NCBI GenBank assembly: GCA_963825525.1
Contig: CAWGTN010000002.1
Span: 1,312,001 to 1,376,000, forward strand
Direction of reading: 5' to 3'
Source: an uncultured Chloroflexia bacterium
GTDB lineage: Bacteria > Chloroflexota > Limnocylindria > QHBO01
Length of the DNA stretch: 64,000 nucleotides
Both the position numbers and the translations under genes were made by a program. Under the pieces are notes generated by a model. That model ran no database searches and had not been told where the DNA came from. It saw only the letters and a program-made list of their open reading frames with translations. Below are positions 39,173-42,904 of the stretch, in pieces. Within the stretch, counting starts at the first letter, position 1. Each line of letters starts with the position of its first letter.

Positions 39173-40816
39173 ATGGAGTCAATGACCGTCGTCCCAACCG
39201 ACGTCGACGCGCGCTTCGATCGCACGATCGATCGCTGGTTCCGAGACCAGCTCGCGATGCGACCCGAGACGGCGACATTCATGGGCATCCACGACCACGA
39301 CGGCGCCCTGTCCTCCGGCTCCCGCGATGCCATCGAGGAGGAGGTCGCCTTCCATCGGCGCGCGATTGACGAGCTTTCGGTTCTCGACCCCGCCGAGCTG
39401 AGTCCGGACCGCGGCCTCGATCGGGATCTCGCCATTCACCAGGCGCGACTCGCCATCCACTGGCAGACCGAATACCGCCCGTGGGCCGGCGCGTCCGGCG
39501 GAGCCGAGCACATCGGTGAAGCGCTGTTCCCGCTCTTCACCCGCAACTTCGCGGCACTCGACGAGCGGCTCGAGCGCATTGCCGAGCGCCTTGAGGCGGC
39601 ACCACGCTACCTGGACGAGGTTCGCGAGCGGGTCACCGCCCCGGTTCGGCTGTGGACGGAGATCGACATCGAGTCGACCGAGCATCTGCCGAGCTTCCTC
39701 GACACCATCCTGGCCGCCGCCCGTGCCGAATCGGCGGATGGGAGGCTCGTCGAACGCCTCAGTCGGGCTGCGCAGGACACCAAATCAGCCCTGGACGATC
39801 ATCTCGTCTGGCTCCGGTCCGACGTCCTTCCGCGGGCGGAGGCGGATTGGAAAGCCGGACCCGAGGGCTTCGAGGAGATGATCCGGCTCCGCGAGCTCGA
39901 GGCGAACGGCGACGAGATCCTGGCGGTCGGCGAGGAGCTCCTCGCGTCCGAGAAGCAGGCGCGCGACGCGCTCGGTCCGCAGATCGCTCCGGGAGCCAGC
40001 GCGTCCGAGGTCGCCGATGTCGTCAAGGACGACCACGCGGCCACGTTCGCCGAGGCACTGGGCGAGTACCGGAGCTCGATGGATCGCGCCCGCGCATTCG
40101 TCGTCGAGCACGGGATCGCCACGCCGCCGGACGAGGACCACCTCAACGTGATCGAGACGCCGTCGTTCGTCCGTCACCTCATCCCGTTCGCCGCCTACTA
40201 CGAACCGGCGAAGTTCGACGAGACACCGGTCGGCACGTACATCGTCACCCCGGCCGCCTCGCCCGAGATGATGCGCGAGCACAACCGGGCCTCGATCAGC
40301 AACACCTCGGTCCACGAGGCGTACCCGGGCCATCATCTGCAGCTCAGCGCCGCGATCACCAACCCCAGCCTGGTCCGCCTGTTCTCGGGCGCGCCGGAGT
40401 TCAGCGAGGGCTGGGCGTTCTACTGCGAGCGGATGATGAAGGAGGCGGGCTTCGACGACACGCCGACGGGTTGGTACATCGTCCACACCGACGCCATCTG
40501 GCGCGCGGTCCGCATCATCCTGGACGTCCAGCTCCATCGCGGGCTGATCAGCGTCGAGGATGCAGTCGAGCGCATGGTGGCCGAAACCGGCTTCGAGCGG
40601 CCGGCCGCACTGGCCGAGGTCAAGCGCTACACGTCATCCCCCACGTATCAGCTCTCCTACCTCTTCGGCCGTCACATGATCCAGAAGCTCAAGGCCGAGG
40701 TGGAGGCACGCGAAGGCGCCGATTTCGACATCCGTCGCTTCCACGACACCCTCATCTACGGGGGAACGATGCCGGTGAGCTATGCACGCCGGCTCTTCGA
40801 GCGCCCGGGCCGATGA
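39173..40816 (+). CDS. DUF885 family protein
   Basis: HEAYPGHHLQ, FSEGWAFYCE, EVKRY...YQLSY, FHDTLI; start uncertain (39164/39173/39182). Confidence 0.9.
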   Translation: MESMTVVPTDVDARFDRTIDRWFRDQLAMRPETATFMGIHDHDGALSSGSRDAIEEEVAFHRRAIDELSVLDPAELSPDRGLDRDLAIHQARLAIHWQTEYRPWAGASGGAEHIGEALFPLFTRNFAALDERLERIAERLEAAPRYLDEVRERVTAPVRLWTEIDIESTEHLPSFLDTILAAARAESADGRLVERLSRAAQDTKSALDDHLVWLRSDVLPRAEADWKAGPEGFEEMIRLRELEANGDEILAVGEELLASEKQARDALGPQIAPGASASEVADVVKDDHAATFAEALGEYRSSMDRARAFVVEHGIATPPDEDHLNVIETPSFVRHLIPFAAYYEPAKFDETPVGTYIVTPAASPEMMREHNRASISNTSVHEAYPGHHLQLSAAITNPSLVRLFSGAPEFSEGWAFYCERMMKEAGFDDTPTGWYIVHTDAIWRAVRIILDVQLHRGLISVEDAVERMVAETGFERPAALAEVKRYTSSPTYQLSYLFGRHMIQKLKAEVEAREGADFDIRRFHDTLIYGGTMPVSYARRLFERPGR

Positions 40817-41478
40817 CACGTGGGCTGCTGGTGGCCGCTGCGGCCCTCCTGCTCGCCGGCTGCGGCCAGGAACCGACGCCCGCGCCGCCGGCCTGCCCAA
40901 CCGAGCCGCCAACGACGGTCTCGGCGCAGGCGACGCTCGAGGGAGCCTCGTTTGCCATCGTCACCATTGGCGGAGCGGTCGAGGGCGAGTTCACGATCGC
41001 GCTGAACGGCTCGGCGGCGCCTACCGCGACGGCGAACTTCGTGGCGCTGGCCCGCTGCGGGTTCTACGACCAGGTCAAGTTCCACCGCGTCCTGGCCGGA
41101 TTCGTCATCCAGGCCGGCGACCCGAACACGAAGGCGTACGACGGTGACTTCAGCGGCATCGGTCGCGAGGGTGCCGGCTACCGGTACGAGATCGAGCCTC
41201 CGGCCGATGAGCTGGGTTACGACCGCTACTCGGTGGCCATGGCGAACGACACGCGAACGAACGACAGCCAGTTCTTCGTGTCGCTCGACGATCTCAACGG
41301 ACGCCTCGCCCGCACGTACACGATCTTCGGCATGGTGGTTGGCGGCACGGACGTCATCGACGCCATCGGAGCCGTTCCGGTGATGGATCCGCGGGTCGGC
41401 ATCCCGGCCACGCCGGTCTGGATCGAATCGATCCTGATCTCGGATGAGGGCGGTCCAGTGGCATCTCCGGGGTCCTGA
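40813..41478 (+). CDS. Cyclophilin-type peptidylprolyl isomerase, lipoprotein
   Basis: LLAGC lipobox; NFVALARCGFYD, FHRVLAGFVIQAGDP, SQFFV, YTIFG. Confidence 0.9.
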   Translation: MTRGLLVAAAALLLAGCGQEPTPAPPACPTEPPTTVSAQATLEGASFAIVTIGGAVEGEFTIALNGSAAPTATANFVALARCGFYDQVKFHRVLAGFVIQAGDPNTKAYDGDFSGIGREGAGYRYEIEPPADELGYDRYSVAMANDTRTNDSQFFVSLDDLNGRLARTYTIFGMVVGGTDVIDAIGAVPVMDPRVGIPATPVWIESILISDEGGPVASPGS

Positions 41479-41527
41479 GAACGCCGAGACGCTTTGCTTT
41501 GTAAAGGAATCTCAACCTCTACAAGCC

Positions 41528-41556
41528 TTGTCTAAAGAGAACAGGCGATCTATCCT
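41528..41556 (+). promoter_or_regulatory. Sigma70-type promoter TTGTCT-N17-TATCCT
   Basis: -35 at 41528-33 and -10 at 41551-56, 17-bp spacer, in an AT-rich patch. Confidence 0.6.
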
Positions 41557-41562
41557 CAGGAT

Positions 41563-41705
41563 GCTGTTCGCACAGCGATTCACCACTGGTTGCAAGGCCA
41601 TGGGTAGGTTAGGGTTAGGGTAGTGCGGGAAACCGTGCGTGAAAGATGCCCTTGCGATTAGCGAATCCGGCAGCAATGAAGGCCCCCGCTTCGGCGGGGG
41701 CCTTC
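41563..41705 (+). ncRNA. Putative novel structured ncRNA with a G-rich (GGUUAG-repeat) loop
   Basis: Hairpin 41563-76; 12-bp helix 41586-97/41650-61; GAAA-capped hairpin; UUCG-capped terminal hairpin; no credible ORF. Confidence 0.65.
41678..41705 (+). terminator. Perfect 12-bp hairpin with a UUCG loop (probable terminator)
   Basis: GAAGGCCCCCGC-TTCG-GCGGGGGCCTTC; weak U-tail. Confidence 0.75.
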
Positions 41706-41787
41706 GTCTATCCGGCTCGGGTCGTGACGAGCATCGGAACCCCATGTACCATGCCCTCGGCCCCATCGGGGCCAGCCCATTGATCGC

Positions 41788-41863
41788 GCGCCGGTAGCTC
41801 AGTGGATAGAGCGTCGGCCTCCGGAGCCGAAGGTCGCAGGTTCGAATCCTGTCCGGCGCGCCA
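41788..41863 (+). tRNA. tRNA-Arg(CCG)
   Basis: GCGCCGG acceptor stem, anticodon loop CTCCGGA, GGTTCGAATCC, encoded CCA. Confidence 0.97.
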
Positions 41864-41882
41864 GACCCTCCCCGCACGTCCG

Positions 41883-42904
41883 CTAGCGCCAGCCGAGCTC
41901 CGGGGCCACGAACTGAGGATGCTCTCGATCGCGTGGGCGTTGTAGTCGACGCCGAGCTGGTTCGGGACCGTCAGCAGCAGGGTGTCAGCCGCCTGGATCG
42001 CCGTGTCTCCGGCGAGCTCCCTGGCGAGGACGTCGGGCTCCGCCGCGTACGAGCGTCCGAAGATCGCCTTGGTCTGCGCGTCGATGTAGCCGACCTGGTC
42101 CGATGACTGGTTGCCACGCCCGAAATACGCCCGATCGCGATCATCGACCAGCGCGAAGATGCTCCGGCTGACCGACACCCGCGGCTCGCGCTCATGCCCC
42201 GCCGCGGCCCACGCATCACGGAACAGCCGGATCTGCTCGGCCTGGAGCTCGTGGAACGGCACGCCGGCGTCCTCGGTCAGCAGTGTTGACGACATCAGAT
42301 TCATGCCCTGCTGCCCGGTCCATTCCGCCGTGGCGCGTGTTCCGGCGCCCCACCAGATCCGGTCGCGCAGCCCGGGCGAGTGCGGCTCGGGGCGGAGCAG
42401 CCCGGGCGGGTTCGGAAACATCGGGTGTGGGTTCGGCTCGGCGAACCCGACCCCGGACAGGGCGTCGAGGAAGACCTTCGTGTGCTCGCGGGCCATGTCG
42501 GCGTCCGTCCCGCCGTCCGGCGGCACGTGGCCGAAGTGTCGGAAACCGTCGATCACCTGCTCGGGCGATCCACGGCTGATCCCGAGCTGCAGGCGACCTC
42601 CTGCAATGAGGTCGGCGGCACCGGCATCTTCGACCATGTAGAGCGGGTTCTCGTAGCGCATGTCGATGACGGCCGTCCCGATCTCGATACGCTTCGTTCG
42701 CGCCCCGATCGCCGCCAGCAGTGGGAAGGGCGACGCGAGCTGCTGCGCGAAATGGTGGACGCGGAAGTACGCGCCGTCCGCACCCAGGTCCTCGACCGCC
42801 TCGGCCAGCTCGATGGACTGAATCAGCGCGTCCGATGCCGAGCGCACCTGAGAGTGGGGTGATGCCGACCAATGACCGAACGAGAGGAACCCCAGCTTCT
42901 TCAT
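41883..42904 (-). CDS. LLM class flavin-dependent oxidoreductase; frameshift near the 3' end (~41912)
   Basis: MKKLGFLSFGHW, YFRVHHFA, IDMRYENP; shifted frame ends VAPELGWR*. Confidence 0.9.

What the first reader, a model, noticed from the sequence alone, without database searches (positions are those of the whole stretch)
41528..41705. Stand-alone ncRNA cassette displaying a telomere-like GGGUAGGUUAGGGUUAGGGUAG loop
Seen: an AT-richer patch between the PPIase gene and tRNA-Arg with no credible ORF. It has a promoter-like TTGTCT-N17-TATCCT (41528-56) and then a foldable ~143 nt unit. The unit comprises the hairpin GCUGU-UCGC-ACAGC, GAUUC/GAAUC, a 12-bp helix CUGGUUGCAAGG (41586-97)/CCUUGCGAUUAG (41650-61), a GCGG-GAAA-CCGU hairpin and a perfect 12-bp C(UUCG)G hairpin. 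Three G-U pairs plus GAAA and UUCG tetraloops all point to a + strand RNA. The large internal loop carries four G-tracts/UAG repeats (41602-41623) that include TTAGGGTTAGGG. Known: TTAGGG is the vertebrate telomere repeat and forms G-quadruplexes; the complement here contains CTAACCCTAAC, the human telomerase template; TRAP and HutP bind UAG repeats. Inference: an undescribed small RNA presenting a G-quadruplex or a repeated protein-binding site, or a template for a trans-encoded RT. I recognise no known RNA family, and no RT is in the window.
Basis: partly seen in the sequence, partly recalled or inferred. Interest (0 to 1): 0.85.

Follow-up and report, generated by a model that had tools for sequence, protein, structure and literature searches.

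The report
New G-tract small RNA of Limnocylindria
This is a real, previously undescribed small non-coding RNA gene found once per genome in a group of uncultured soil and freshwater Chloroflexota; its core is four unchanging runs of G held between two helices, and its likeness to a telomere repeat is a coincidence.

Summary
No Rfam family matches the window or 20 homologous loci.

It is a conserved RNA gene. A covariance model finds one copy per genome in 96 of 151 genomes of the class. By family this is f1 47/50, f3 42/44, f4 6/6, f2 0/49 and f5 0/1. Outside the class there is only one weak hit in 136 Chloroflexota genomes. Named records are mostly Ca. Limnocylindria.

Helices P2 and P3 covary: 9 pairs change on both sides, and 0 to 1 of 500 shuffles reach the observed measures. 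Promoter boxes sit at a fixed distance in 118 of 142 loci.

The invariant part is G3-N2-G2-N1-3-G3-N3-G3, opposite a 7-8 nt purine-rich strand. It is kept in 36 of 36 model-picked homologues. TTAGGGTTAGGG occurs in 1 of 36. The genome shows no reverse transcriptase (RVT_1), no TTAGGG arrays, no Hfq and no RRM proteins.

Best reading: a trans-acting structured RNA whose G-tract loop forms a compact, probably G-quadruplex-like, binding module. The fold and the partner are inferred. Transcription rests only on contigs in RNA-labelled soil runs.

The parts
41491..41518 (+). A/T-rich conserved element upstream of the -35 box. It may be an UP-like element or a regulator binding site.
   Evidence: It is conserved in the genus and, in related form, in other families (alignment printed). 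Its 9-nt core occurs only here in the 2.58 Mb genome. Function is inferred.
41528..41556 (+). Promoter-like boxes: TTGTCT, 17 nt spacer, TATCCT.
   Evidence: Read. TTGNNN-N16-18-TANNNT lies 39-49 nt (one case 55) upstream of the core in 118 of 142 loci, and the spacer is 17 nt in 98 of them. The strict consensus scan does not report it.
41563..41576 (+). P0, a 5' hairpin (5 bp, UCGC loop). The RNA is inferred to start at about 41562-41564.
   Evidence: Read. A hairpin of at least 4 pairs, with differing stem sequences, is found in 120 of 120 distinct homologous segments. The mean energy is only modestly below that of shuffles (-7.6 against -5.5). The transcription start is inferred from the -10 box.
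41577..41581 (+). P1, 5' strand (GAUUC). It pairs with 41663-41667.
   Evidence: Read. It is constant within family f1. Other families close the domain with a different helix.
41586..41601 (+). P2, 5' strand. 41586-41597 pairs with 41650-41661. After a C-C mismatch, CAU 41599-41601 pairs with AUG 41646-41648.
   Evidence: Of the 12 P2 pairs, 7 show changes on both sides, and 93.4% of cells are paired. The extension to CAU/AUG is supported by homologues in which the mismatch becomes a pair.
41602..41622 (+). 5' strand of the internal loop. It holds four G tracts (41602-04, 41607-08, 41612-14, 41618-20) separated by UA, UUA and UUA.
   Evidence: The tract pattern is kept in 36 of 36 model-picked homologues, while the loop letters vary. 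It is also kept in 48 of 50 distinct metagenome homologues chosen by their 3' half alone.
41623..41638 (+). P3 hairpin (6 bp, GAAA loop).
   Evidence: Two P3 pairs change on both sides, and 98.1% of cells are paired. Other families have a 5-bp stem with a U-N-N-A-G loop.
41639..41645 (+). 3' strand of the internal loop (GUGAAAG).
   Evidence: The pattern C-G-N-N-A-N-A-G-A-U-G is kept across families. Three positions vary.
41646..41667 (+). 3' strands of P2 (41646-41661) and P1 (41663-41667).
41678..41712 (+). Intrinsic terminator: a 12-bp stem with a UUCG loop (41678-41705), followed by a short tail that is poor in T.
   Evidence: The terminator stem covaries in other families (columns 168-200). 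A T-rich tail is seen in only 47 of 136 loci. The strict scan does not report it.
40810..41478 (+). Upstream neighbour: a cyclophilin-type peptidyl-prolyl isomerase with a lipoprotein-like N terminus. It gives context and is not shown to be part of the unit.
   Evidence: Pfam Pro_isomerase, E 2.5e-31. Translation. A homologue lies upstream on the same strand in 129 of 147 loci.
41788..41863 (+). Downstream neighbour: tRNA-Arg (CCG). It gives context only.
   Evidence: It lies downstream on the same strand in 69 of 147 loci, at 162-5567 nt.

Best explanation
Window 41563 to about 41710 (+) encodes a member of an undescribed family of structured small RNAs. The RNA is about 145 nt here and about 175 nt in other families. 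It is single-copy and is found in three of the five sampled families of Ca. Limnocylindria (Chloroflexota).

Shown:
- It has its own conserved promoter-like boxes and a covarying terminator hairpin.
- Two covarying helices (P2 and P3) clamp an asymmetric internal loop.
- The four G tracts in that loop (G3-N2-G2-N1-3-G3-N3-G3) and most of the opposing 7-8 nt strand do not change, although the letters between the tracts do.

Inferred:
- The loop does not act as a sequence to be copied or read. It folds into a compact non-Watson-Crick module, most likely a two-tier or mixed G-quadruplex stacked between P2 and P3, as in the Spinach aptamer.
- This module is the binding site for a partner, either a protein or a small planar or guanine-like ligand.
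- The RNA therefore acts in trans as a binder, sensor or scaffold.

My odds: new structured RNA family about 0.9; the loop acts as a folded binding module rather than an antisense seed about 0.55; the fold is truly a G-quadruplex about 0.35. The confidence given for this explanation (0.5) is for the whole statement, with the folded binding module but without insisting on a quadruplex.
For: - No Rfam family at gathering score in the window, none credible at E<=10 in 41400-41800, and none in 20 homologous loci.
- One copy per genome in 96 of 151 genomes of the class: f1 47/50, f3 42/44, f4 6/6.
- Helices covary: 94.9% of cells are paired, against 88.5% in shuffles and 31-50% when the partners are slid. 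Nine pairs change on both sides. In the full-length alignment 22 of 45 pairs do so.
- Promoter boxes at a fixed distance in 118 of 142 loci.
- G tracts are kept in 36 of 36 homologues, while loop 2 takes 6 forms and loop 3 takes 3 forms.
- In homologues chosen only by their 3' half, 48 of 50 distinct sequences keep the tract pattern. The two exceptions still have at least GG in every tract, and one turns tract 2 into GGG.
- The opposing strand is conserved too. A single-stranded seed would not require that.
- No antisense target of 12 nt or more exists in the genome. There is no excess pairing with the 5' regions of neighbouring genes (z -0.07 to 1.12).
- A G-quadruplex flanked coaxially by duplexes on both sides is a known RNA architecture (passages on Spinach read in PMC7962482).
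- Four soil runs on record as RNA hold 59-65% of the sampled words.
Against: - Nothing here shows a G-quadruplex. The canonical four-GGG motif is not met, because tract 2 is GG in 36 of 36 homologues.
- ViennaRNA with its quadruplex term puts no G4 in the minimum-energy fold of 5 homologues.
- G3-G2-G3-G3 motifs with short loops are common in this 69% G+C genome: 134 on both strands.
- The first U of each loop and the last A of loops 1 and 3 are conserved. That fits sequence-specific protein recognition of repeated GGGU(N)A units as well as it fits a quadruplex.
- No partner was found. Hfq and RRM proteins are not detected in the genome.
- Neighbouring genes (DUF885, cyclophilin, luciferase-like monooxygenase) give no functional hint.
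- Transcription, RNA ends and strand are not shown.
- Strict consensus scans see no promoter or terminator in the window.
Confidence: 0.5

Rival explanations
1. Base-pairing regulatory sRNA. The G-rich strand is an exposed seed that pairs with C/U-rich stretches of mRNAs. This would mirror the C-rich loops of actinobacterial 6C RNA (6C mechanism recalled, not checked here).
For: It is a stand-alone sRNA gene with a promoter and a terminator. The 21-nt stretch is extremely conserved. The organism has no Hfq, as is the case for high-G+C Gram-positives that use G/C-rich seeds (recalled).
Against: The opposing 7-8 nt strand and the flanking CAU/AUG pairs are equally invariant. The variation that is tolerated lies between the tracts, not in them. 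No complement of 12 nt or more exists in the genome. The longest are one 11-mer and one 10-mer. Predicted duplexes with the 5' regions of four neighbouring genes and with tRNA-Arg are no better than with shuffled loops. A genome-wide scan for targets that allows G-U pairs was not done.
Confidence: 0.17
2. Protein-sequestering or scaffold RNA that recognises its partner through repeated single-stranded GGGU(N)A units without a quadruplex, in the way RsmY/CsrB RNAs present repeated GGA motifs.
For: There are four tandem units of 4-6 nt. In each, the G run, the following U and usually a final A are conserved. The RNA is single-copy, clade-wide and appears in RNA-labelled soil runs.
Against: No candidate protein was found. 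RRM_1 and Hfq are not detected in the genome, and the neighbours are not RNA-binding proteins. Four units are few for a sponge. The weak RsmY matches cover little more than the terminator hairpin.
Confidence: 0.2
3. A cis-acting part of a neighbouring transcript: either the 3' UTR and terminator of the cyclophilin mRNA, or a leader of tRNA-Arg(CCG).
For: The cyclophilin gene lies directly upstream on the same strand in 129 of 147 loci. I saw no hairpin between its stop codon and the RNA, so read-through is possible. tRNA-Arg(CCG) follows within 500 nt in 41 of 129 loci.
Against: The RNA's own promoter boxes are conserved at a fixed distance. The distance to tRNA-Arg ranges from 162 to 5567 nt, and the strong terminator lies in between. 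The genus alignment also shows separate promoter-like boxes in front of the tRNA (alignment printed). The five family f2 and f5 genomes examined have cyclophilin homologues and tRNA-Arg(CCG) without this RNA.
Confidence: 0.06
4. A divergent housekeeping RNA, for example a 6S-like RNA that binds RNA polymerase.
For: The Rfam 6S model finds nothing in this genome or in 101 genomes of the class, so a 6S equivalent is unaccounted for. The RNA is single-copy and conserved.
Against: The arm beyond the loop is a 5-6 bp hairpin and the closing helices total about 17-20 bp. This is far shorter than the 6S rod (6S architecture recalled). The RNA was not found in the 49 genomes of family f2 or in the one f5 genome, which also lack a 6S hit. 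SRP RNA is present elsewhere in the genome.
Confidence: 0.04
5. One reading: a template RNA for a reverse transcriptase encoded elsewhere (telomerase-like or retron-like).
For: In this genome the loop reads TTAGGGTTAGGG.
Against: That repeat occurs in only 1 of 36 homologues. No RVT_1 domain is found in the genome. The genome holds no TTAGGG array. The template-like C-rich sequence lies on the non-transcribed strand.
Confidence: 0.01

Closest known systems
Spinach and Mango-type G-quadruplex aptamers (selected in vitro)
   Same: A G-rich internal region lies between or next to A-form helices. [quoted passage not shown] Here an irregular G3/G2/G3/G3 strand and a short purine-rich strand lie between P2 and P3.
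   Different: Those RNAs are artificial, and their folds are solved. Here the fold is only inferred, the ligand is unknown, and there is no sequence relationship. I made no sequence comparison with them.
Orphan structured bacterial ncRNAs found by comparative genomics (for example raiA motif RNA, ROOL, GOLLD)
   Same: Conserved and covarying structure, their own transcription signals, unknown biochemical function and a clade-restricted distribution. Titles and abstracts seen only in the listing: PMC10861870, PMC11109978, PMC8632094.
   Different: No match to any Rfam model. This RNA is much smaller than ROOL and GOLLD. Its core is a run of G tracts, and it is confined to three families of one class.
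6C RNA of Actinobacteria (RF01066)
   Same: A small stand-alone RNA of Hfq-less, high-G+C bacteria whose conserved feature is a homopolymer-rich loop.
   Different: 6C has C-rich hairpin loops, whereas this RNA has G tracts in an internal loop. The 6C model scores 20-22.7 bits against a gathering score of 47, and only over the terminator region.
6S RNA (RF00013)
   Same: A single-copy, conserved small RNA with a large internal loop between helices.
   Different: No model match. The terminal arm is only a 5-6 bp hairpin. The RNA was not found in family f2.
Sc1 RNA, the G-quadruplex-duplex junction bound by the FMRP RGG peptide
   Same: An example of a protein reading the junction between a G-quadruplex and a duplex (passages in PMC7962482). 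It is a model for how a protein partner could recognise this loop.
   Different: Sc1 was selected in vitro and binds a eukaryotic protein. No RGG-type partner was sought or found here.

Membership tests
Any Rfam 15 family | A score at or above the family's gathering threshold | tested here: not met
   Only two tRNAs in the window reach the threshold. In 41400-41800 the best score is 26.3 bits against a gathering score of 46, on the minus strand over the terminator. In 20 homologous loci there are only tRNAs and two sub-threshold hits.
6S RNA | A match to RF00013 | tested here: not met
   0 matches in the window's own genome and 0 in 101 genomes of the class. The model rings in only 4-5 of 14 control genomes, so its sensitivity is limited.
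6S RNA | A rod about 180 nt long, with a long closing stem, a central bubble and a long terminal stem (recalled definition) | tested here: not met
   In the comparative structure the arm beyond the loop is a 5-6 bp hairpin and P1 plus P2 total about 17-20 bp.
Telomerase-type or retron-type template RNA | A conserved template sequence on the RNA | tested here: not met
   TTAGGGTTAGGG occurs in 1 of 36 homologues. The RNA carries the G-rich strand, not the C-rich template.
Telomerase-type or retron-type template RNA | A reverse transcriptase partner in the genome | tested here: not met
   PF00078: 0 matches in the 91.8%-complete genome.
Telomerase-type or retron-type template RNA | Arrays of the templated repeat in the genome | tested here: not met
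   The only occurrence of two or more tandem TTAGGG units in 2.58 Mb is this locus.
TRAP or HutP binding RNA | Many (G/U)AG triplets at regular spacing: about 9-11 for TRAP, two sets of three for HutP (recalled) | tested here: not met
   The 5' loop strand holds 2 UAG in 23, 3 in 12 and 4 in 1 of 36 homologues. The second UAG of the window is not conserved.
Canonical three-tier G-quadruplex motif | Four tracts of at least three G, with loops of 1-7 nt | tested here: not met
   Tract 2 is GG in 36 of 36 homologues. One metagenome variant has GGG there.
Two-tier or irregular G-quadruplex | Four tracts of at least two G with short loops, where the G positions are invariant and the loop letters are free | tested here: met
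   36 of 36 homologues. All 50 distinct metagenome homologues chosen by their 3' half keep at least GG in each tract. Loop 2 takes 6 forms and loop 3 takes 3 forms.
Two-tier or irregular G-quadruplex | A cation-dependent four-stranded fold | not testable with these tools
   ViennaRNA's quadruplex term gives no G4 in the minimum-energy fold of 5 homologues. That model handles only regular tracts.
Riboswitch (cis-acting) | An aptamer followed by an expression platform that controls a downstream ORF of related function | tested here: not met
   The terminator is followed by tRNA-Arg at 162-5567 nt or by varying genes. No alternative anti-terminator pairing was identified in this family, f1. In f3 two exclusive closing helices exist. 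I did not test whether they form a switch.
Stand-alone bacterial sRNA gene | Its own promoter and intrinsic terminator, conserved with the RNA | tested here: met
   Promoter boxes in 118 of 142 loci. The terminator stem covaries. The strict consensus scan of the window itself reports none.
Stand-alone bacterial sRNA gene | A discrete transcript | tested here: inconclusive
   Four soil runs on record as RNA hold 59-65% of the sampled words as contigs.

The most novel reading that the evidence does not exclude
This is a natural bacterial non-coding RNA family whose conserved functional core is an irregular G-quadruplex stacked between two helices, a natural counterpart of Spinach or Mango. The GG tract would leave a vacancy that is filled either by a conserved G of the opposing strand or by a guanine-like or planar metabolite. 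The RNA would then be a trans-acting metabolite or cofactor sensor in Ca. Limnocylindria.
Probability: 0.25. Interest if true: 0.85.

Novelty: new member of a known kind. Interest (0 to 1): 0.6.

Why it matters
Ca. Limnocylindria are widespread, uncultured soil and freshwater Chloroflexota. Searches of the held literature found no paper that combines the class name with non-coding RNA, and no paper holds the core sequence words in a relevant context.

The RNA is single-copy and almost invariant, so it can serve as a clade marker. Its conservation suggests an important role in these bacteria.

Its conservation pattern is fixed G tracts, free loop letters and a fixed opposing strand, clamped by covarying helices. 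That is what a natural G-quadruplex module would look like. A conserved one would therefore be a useful natural test case and a candidate ligand-binding fold.

If the fold is not a quadruplex, the result is still a clean new orphan RNA family with a defined model (R1) and alignments (A4, A5, A6) ready for experiment.

Tried and rejected
Known families. Rfam at gathering score and at E<=10 gave nothing. A weak HTH-XRE match (21.2 bits against 49.8) lies on the minus strand over the promoter region. It did not recur in 20 homologues at E<=0.1 and was dropped.

6S. The 6S model is negative in the genome and in 101 genomes of the class, including the family without this RNA. It therefore does not discriminate.

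Families f2 and f5. I looked for a diverged copy:
- BLAST: f2 0/7.
- Model R1 with strict filters: f2 0/49.
- R1 with lax filters on five genomes: only a 21.7-bit hit at E 0.064.
- The regions upstream of their tRNA-Arg(CCG) and downstream of their cyclophilin homologues show no such RNA. I read these by eye and did not annotate them.

Partners and targets. RVT_1, RRM_1 and Hfq were not found in the genome. The exact-complement search and the duplex energies with neighbouring genes gave no target. A phyletic-profile search for proteins that co-occur with the RNA was not feasible with one query per call.

Other collections. Viral contigs hold no match to the core pattern.

Folding. ViennaRNA with its G-quadruplex term predicts no G4. 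Single-sequence folds of family f4 RNAs were inconsistent with each other.

Closing helix. My first model closed the domain in f3 with CUGCC/GGCAG. RNAalifold prefers an outer helix plus a P4 arm, giving a three-way junction. Both are nearly invariant in f3. By eye the f4 sequences printed keep the outer helix with one compensatory change. I leave this open.

Literature. One search was badly framed: none of the listed papers held the class name, so it says nothing. Searches were used only to find reviews. Only passages of PMC7962482 were read. Supplementary files were not consulted.

Expression. The look-up of sequencing runs listed 23 runs.

Labels. A few named MAG contigs that hold the RNA are labelled Steroidobacteraceae (2), Polarisedimenticolia (1), Sulfomarinibacteraceae (1) and Anaerolineaceae (1). 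I did not test whether these contigs are mis-binned.

Unpublished genomes. G006 (locus L007) is one of the 147 loci counted, and counts in the tally. G115 and G141 count in the tally. No sequence of theirs is printed in this report.

This call adds it.
Full report
OBSERVATION

- Promoter-like boxes: TTGTCT (41528-33), 17 nt spacer, TATCCT (41551-56).
- A 5-bp hairpin at 41563-76.
- GAUUC (41577-81) pairing with GAAUC (41663-67).
- A 12-bp helix, 41586-97 with 41650-61, containing three G-U pairs.
- A GAAA-capped hairpin, which is 6 bp long (41623-38).
- A 12-bp UUCG-capped hairpin (41678-41705).
- G tracts at 41602-04, 41607-08, 41612-14 and 41618-20.

The unit lies between a cyclophilin gene and tRNA-Arg(CCG). 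The cyclophilin gene spans 40810-41478 (Pfam Pro_isomerase, E 2.5e-31) and has a lipoprotein-like N terminus. The tRNA spans 41788-41863.

The strict consensus scans report no promoter-like and no terminator-like site in 41300-41900. Both strands fold better than shuffles (z -3.67 and -3.49). A single sequence therefore settles neither the reality of the unit nor its strand.

IT IS A CONSERVED RNA GENE

BLAST finds the stretch at 85-95% identity in 22 of 24 genomes of the same genus. Its central 65 nt recur in two other families of the class. The window's own genome holds one copy.

Of the 80 listed, nearly all are MAGs labelled Chloroflexota or Ca. Limnocylindria/Limnocylindrales.

I built a covariance model (R1) from 44 non-redundant sequences (alignment A4).
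- It finds exactly one match in 96 of 151 genomes of the class: f1 47/50, f3 42/44, f4 6/6, f2 0/49, f5 0/1.
- Among 136 Chloroflexota genomes outside the class there is one 25-bit hit at E 0.007, which I regard as noise.
- Laxer filters on five f2 and f5 genomes give nothing credible.
- Viral contigs hold no match.

STRUCTURE

On A4 my structure pairs 94.9% of cells, against 88.5 +/- 0.5% in column shuffles (0 of 500 reach it). When the 3' partners are slid, 31-50% of cells pair. Nine pairs change on both sides (1 of 500 shuffles). Seven of these are in P2 and two in P3.

P2 runs on through a U-C or C-C mismatch into three invariant pairs, CAU with AUG. In one sub-clade the mismatch and its neighbours are replaced by Watson-Crick pairs.

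The internal loop is therefore:
- 5' strand: GGG-UA-GG-U(N0-2)-GGG-UNA-GGG-UA.
- 3' strand: G-N-N-A-N-A-G.
- It is closed by P2 on one side and by the P3 hairpin on the other.

A 5' hairpin (P0) with varying stem sequence is present in 120 of 120 distinct homologues.

Families f3 and f4 carry an extra arm (P4) that this genome's family lacks. RNAalifold on 32 full-length f3 sequences gives 45 pairs, and 22 of them change on both sides. These include P4 and the terminator. It closes the domain with an outer helix, making a three-way junction. I could not decide between that helix and an inner one, because both are nearly invariant.

G-U pairs in the helices indicate the + strand. So do promoter boxes at a fixed distance (TTGNNN-N16-18-TANNNT in 118 of 142 loci) and the covarying terminator.

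WHAT IS CONSERVED IN THE LOOP

I fetched 36 homologues picked from model hits, not by the loop pattern.
- The tract pattern G3-N2-G2-N1-3-G3-N3-G3 is present in 36 of 36.
- Loop 1 is UA in 35 and AA in 1.
- Loop 2 takes six forms: U, UU, UC, UUU, UUA and UCA.
- Loop 3 takes three forms: UAA, UUA and UCA.
- TTAGGGTTAGGG occurs in 1 of 36.
- The number of UAG triplets is 2 in 23, 3 in 12 and 4 in 1.

As a less biased test I scanned metagenome contigs with a pattern drawn only from the 3' half, that is P3, the 3' loop strand and AUG.
- 112 hits held enough upstream sequence, and they gave 55 distinct upstream segments.
- Five segments were unrelated chance matches.
- 48 of the remaining 50 keep the tract pattern.
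- One exception has U-to-G changes that make tract 2 GGG.
- The other has GG in tract 3.
- Every homologue therefore keeps at least GG in all four tracts.

The telomere likeness of this genome's copy is an accident of its loop letters.

WHAT IT IS NOT

- No Rfam family matches, in the window or in 20 homologues.
- SRP RNA is elsewhere in the genome.
- The 6S model finds nothing in the genome or in 101 genomes of the class. The short P3 arm and the lack of any hit in f2 also speak against a 6S role.
- There is no RVT_1 domain.
- The genome has no other tandem TTAGGG.
- Hfq and RRM domains are not detected.
- No genomic complement of the loop reaches 12 nt.
- Predicted duplexes with neighbouring 5' regions are no better than with shuffled loops.
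- It is not a riboswitch in the usual sense. A strong terminator is followed by a tRNA gene or by varying genes, with tRNA-Arg 162-5567 nt downstream.

CONTEXT

- The cyclophilin gene lies upstream on the same strand in 129 of 147 loci.
- A DUF885 gene lies further upstream in 83 of 147 loci.
- tRNA-Asp(GTC) lies 3.5-6.5 kb upstream on the other strand in 24 loci. Only 25 loci hold 5.5 kb or more of upstream sequence.
- tRNA-Arg(CCG) follows in 69 of 147 loci.

This is stable chromosomal synteny, not a mobile element. The neighbours give no functional hint.

An A/T-rich element (41491-41518) lies just upstream of the -35 box. It is conserved with the RNA, and its core is unique in the genome. 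It may be an UP-like element or an operator.

EXPRESSION

Twenty of 23 listed public runs, from 16 studies, hold at least half of the sampled words. Four are on record as RNA. All four are soil metatranscriptomes, and two of them have only 90 and 136 million letters.

This is consistent with an abundant transcript. Contigs cannot show ends or strand, however, and DNA carry-over is not excluded.

MECHANISM

What is shown:
- A clade-specific, single-copy RNA gene.
- Covarying helices clamp an invariant, asymmetric loop that is rich in G tracts.

What is inferred:
- Both loop strands are fixed, while the letters between the tracts are free. The loop is therefore more likely a folded module than a seed or a template.
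- The best structural guess is an irregular G-quadruplex stacked between P2 and P3. It would have two tiers or mixed tetrads, perhaps completed by a conserved G of the 3' strand. This architecture is documented for Spinach (passages in PMC7962482).
- Such a module would bind a protein or a planar or guanine-like ligand.

Against this:
- The canonical motif is not met.
- ViennaRNA's quadruplex term predicts none.
- Such motifs are frequent in this G+C-rich genome: 134 on both strands, of which only 2 have A/T-only loops.
- The conserved U and A in the loops would suit a sequence-specific protein equally well.

My odds:
- New structured RNA family: about 0.9.
- Folded binding module rather than an antisense seed: about 0.55.
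- True G-quadruplex: about 0.35.

NOVELTY AND SCORE

Searches of the held literature found nothing on this RNA.
- Sequence words gave 64 papers. The 20 listed are primers or unrelated topics.
- The class name together with 'noncoding RNA' gave 0 papers.

I file it as a new member of a known kind, an orphan structured bacterial small RNA. There is a one-in-four chance that it is the first conserved natural G-quadruplex RNA family in bacteria. Interest: 0.6.

Noticed in passing
window 41491-41518: An A/T-rich element just upstream of the -35 box is conserved together with the RNA across families. Its 9-nt core occurs nowhere else in the 2.58 Mb genome. It may be an UP-like element or the operator of an unknown regulator.
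   Followed up: partly
window 41502-41569 (minus strand): A weak match to Rfam HTH-XRE (RF02923): 21.2 bits against a gathering score of 49.8, E 0.09. It lies over the promoter region, read on the opposite strand. It did not recur at E<=0.1 in 20 homologous loci.
   Followed up: yes
whole genome G000 and 101 genomes of the class: The Rfam 6S model (RF00013) finds nothing in any sampled genome of the class. A 6S RNA, if present, is too divergent to be seen and remains to be found.
   Followed up: partly
window 41724-41760: Separate promoter-like boxes (TGACG, then TACCAT) lie in front of tRNA-Arg(CCG). They are conserved in the genus alignment, so the tRNA seems to be transcribed on its own.
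   Followed up: no
loci of families f3 and f4, e.g. L032:7703-7884 (-), L218, L220, L221: Other families carry an extra arm (P4) between the core and the terminator. In f4 its 10-nt loop is identical in the sequences seen, while the stem covaries. In f3 the 5' strand GCUGCC can pair with either of two conserved 3' partners. This could be an alternative-structure switch.
   Followed up: partly
L055, L057, L060, L066, L079 (named genome records): Contigs that hold the RNA are labelled Steroidobacteraceae (2), Polarisedimenticolia, Anaerolineaceae and Sulfomarinibacteraceae. L055 and L057 carry the same sequence type as this genome's family, so mis-binned contigs seem likely.
   Followed up: no
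window 40810-41478: The cyclophilin upstream has a signal peptide-like N terminus that ends in a lipobox-like LLAGC. Its gene is the most constant neighbour of the RNA (129 of 147 loci). I saw no hairpin between its stop codon and the RNA, so read-through into the RNA is possible.
   Followed up: partly
L190, L191, L193, L195 (families f2 and f5): In genomes without the RNA, tRNA-Arg(CCG) is preceded by uninterrupted G+C-rich sequence up to about 60 nt from the tRNA. This looks like a divergently oriented gene, so the syntenic slot is absent.
   Followed up: partly
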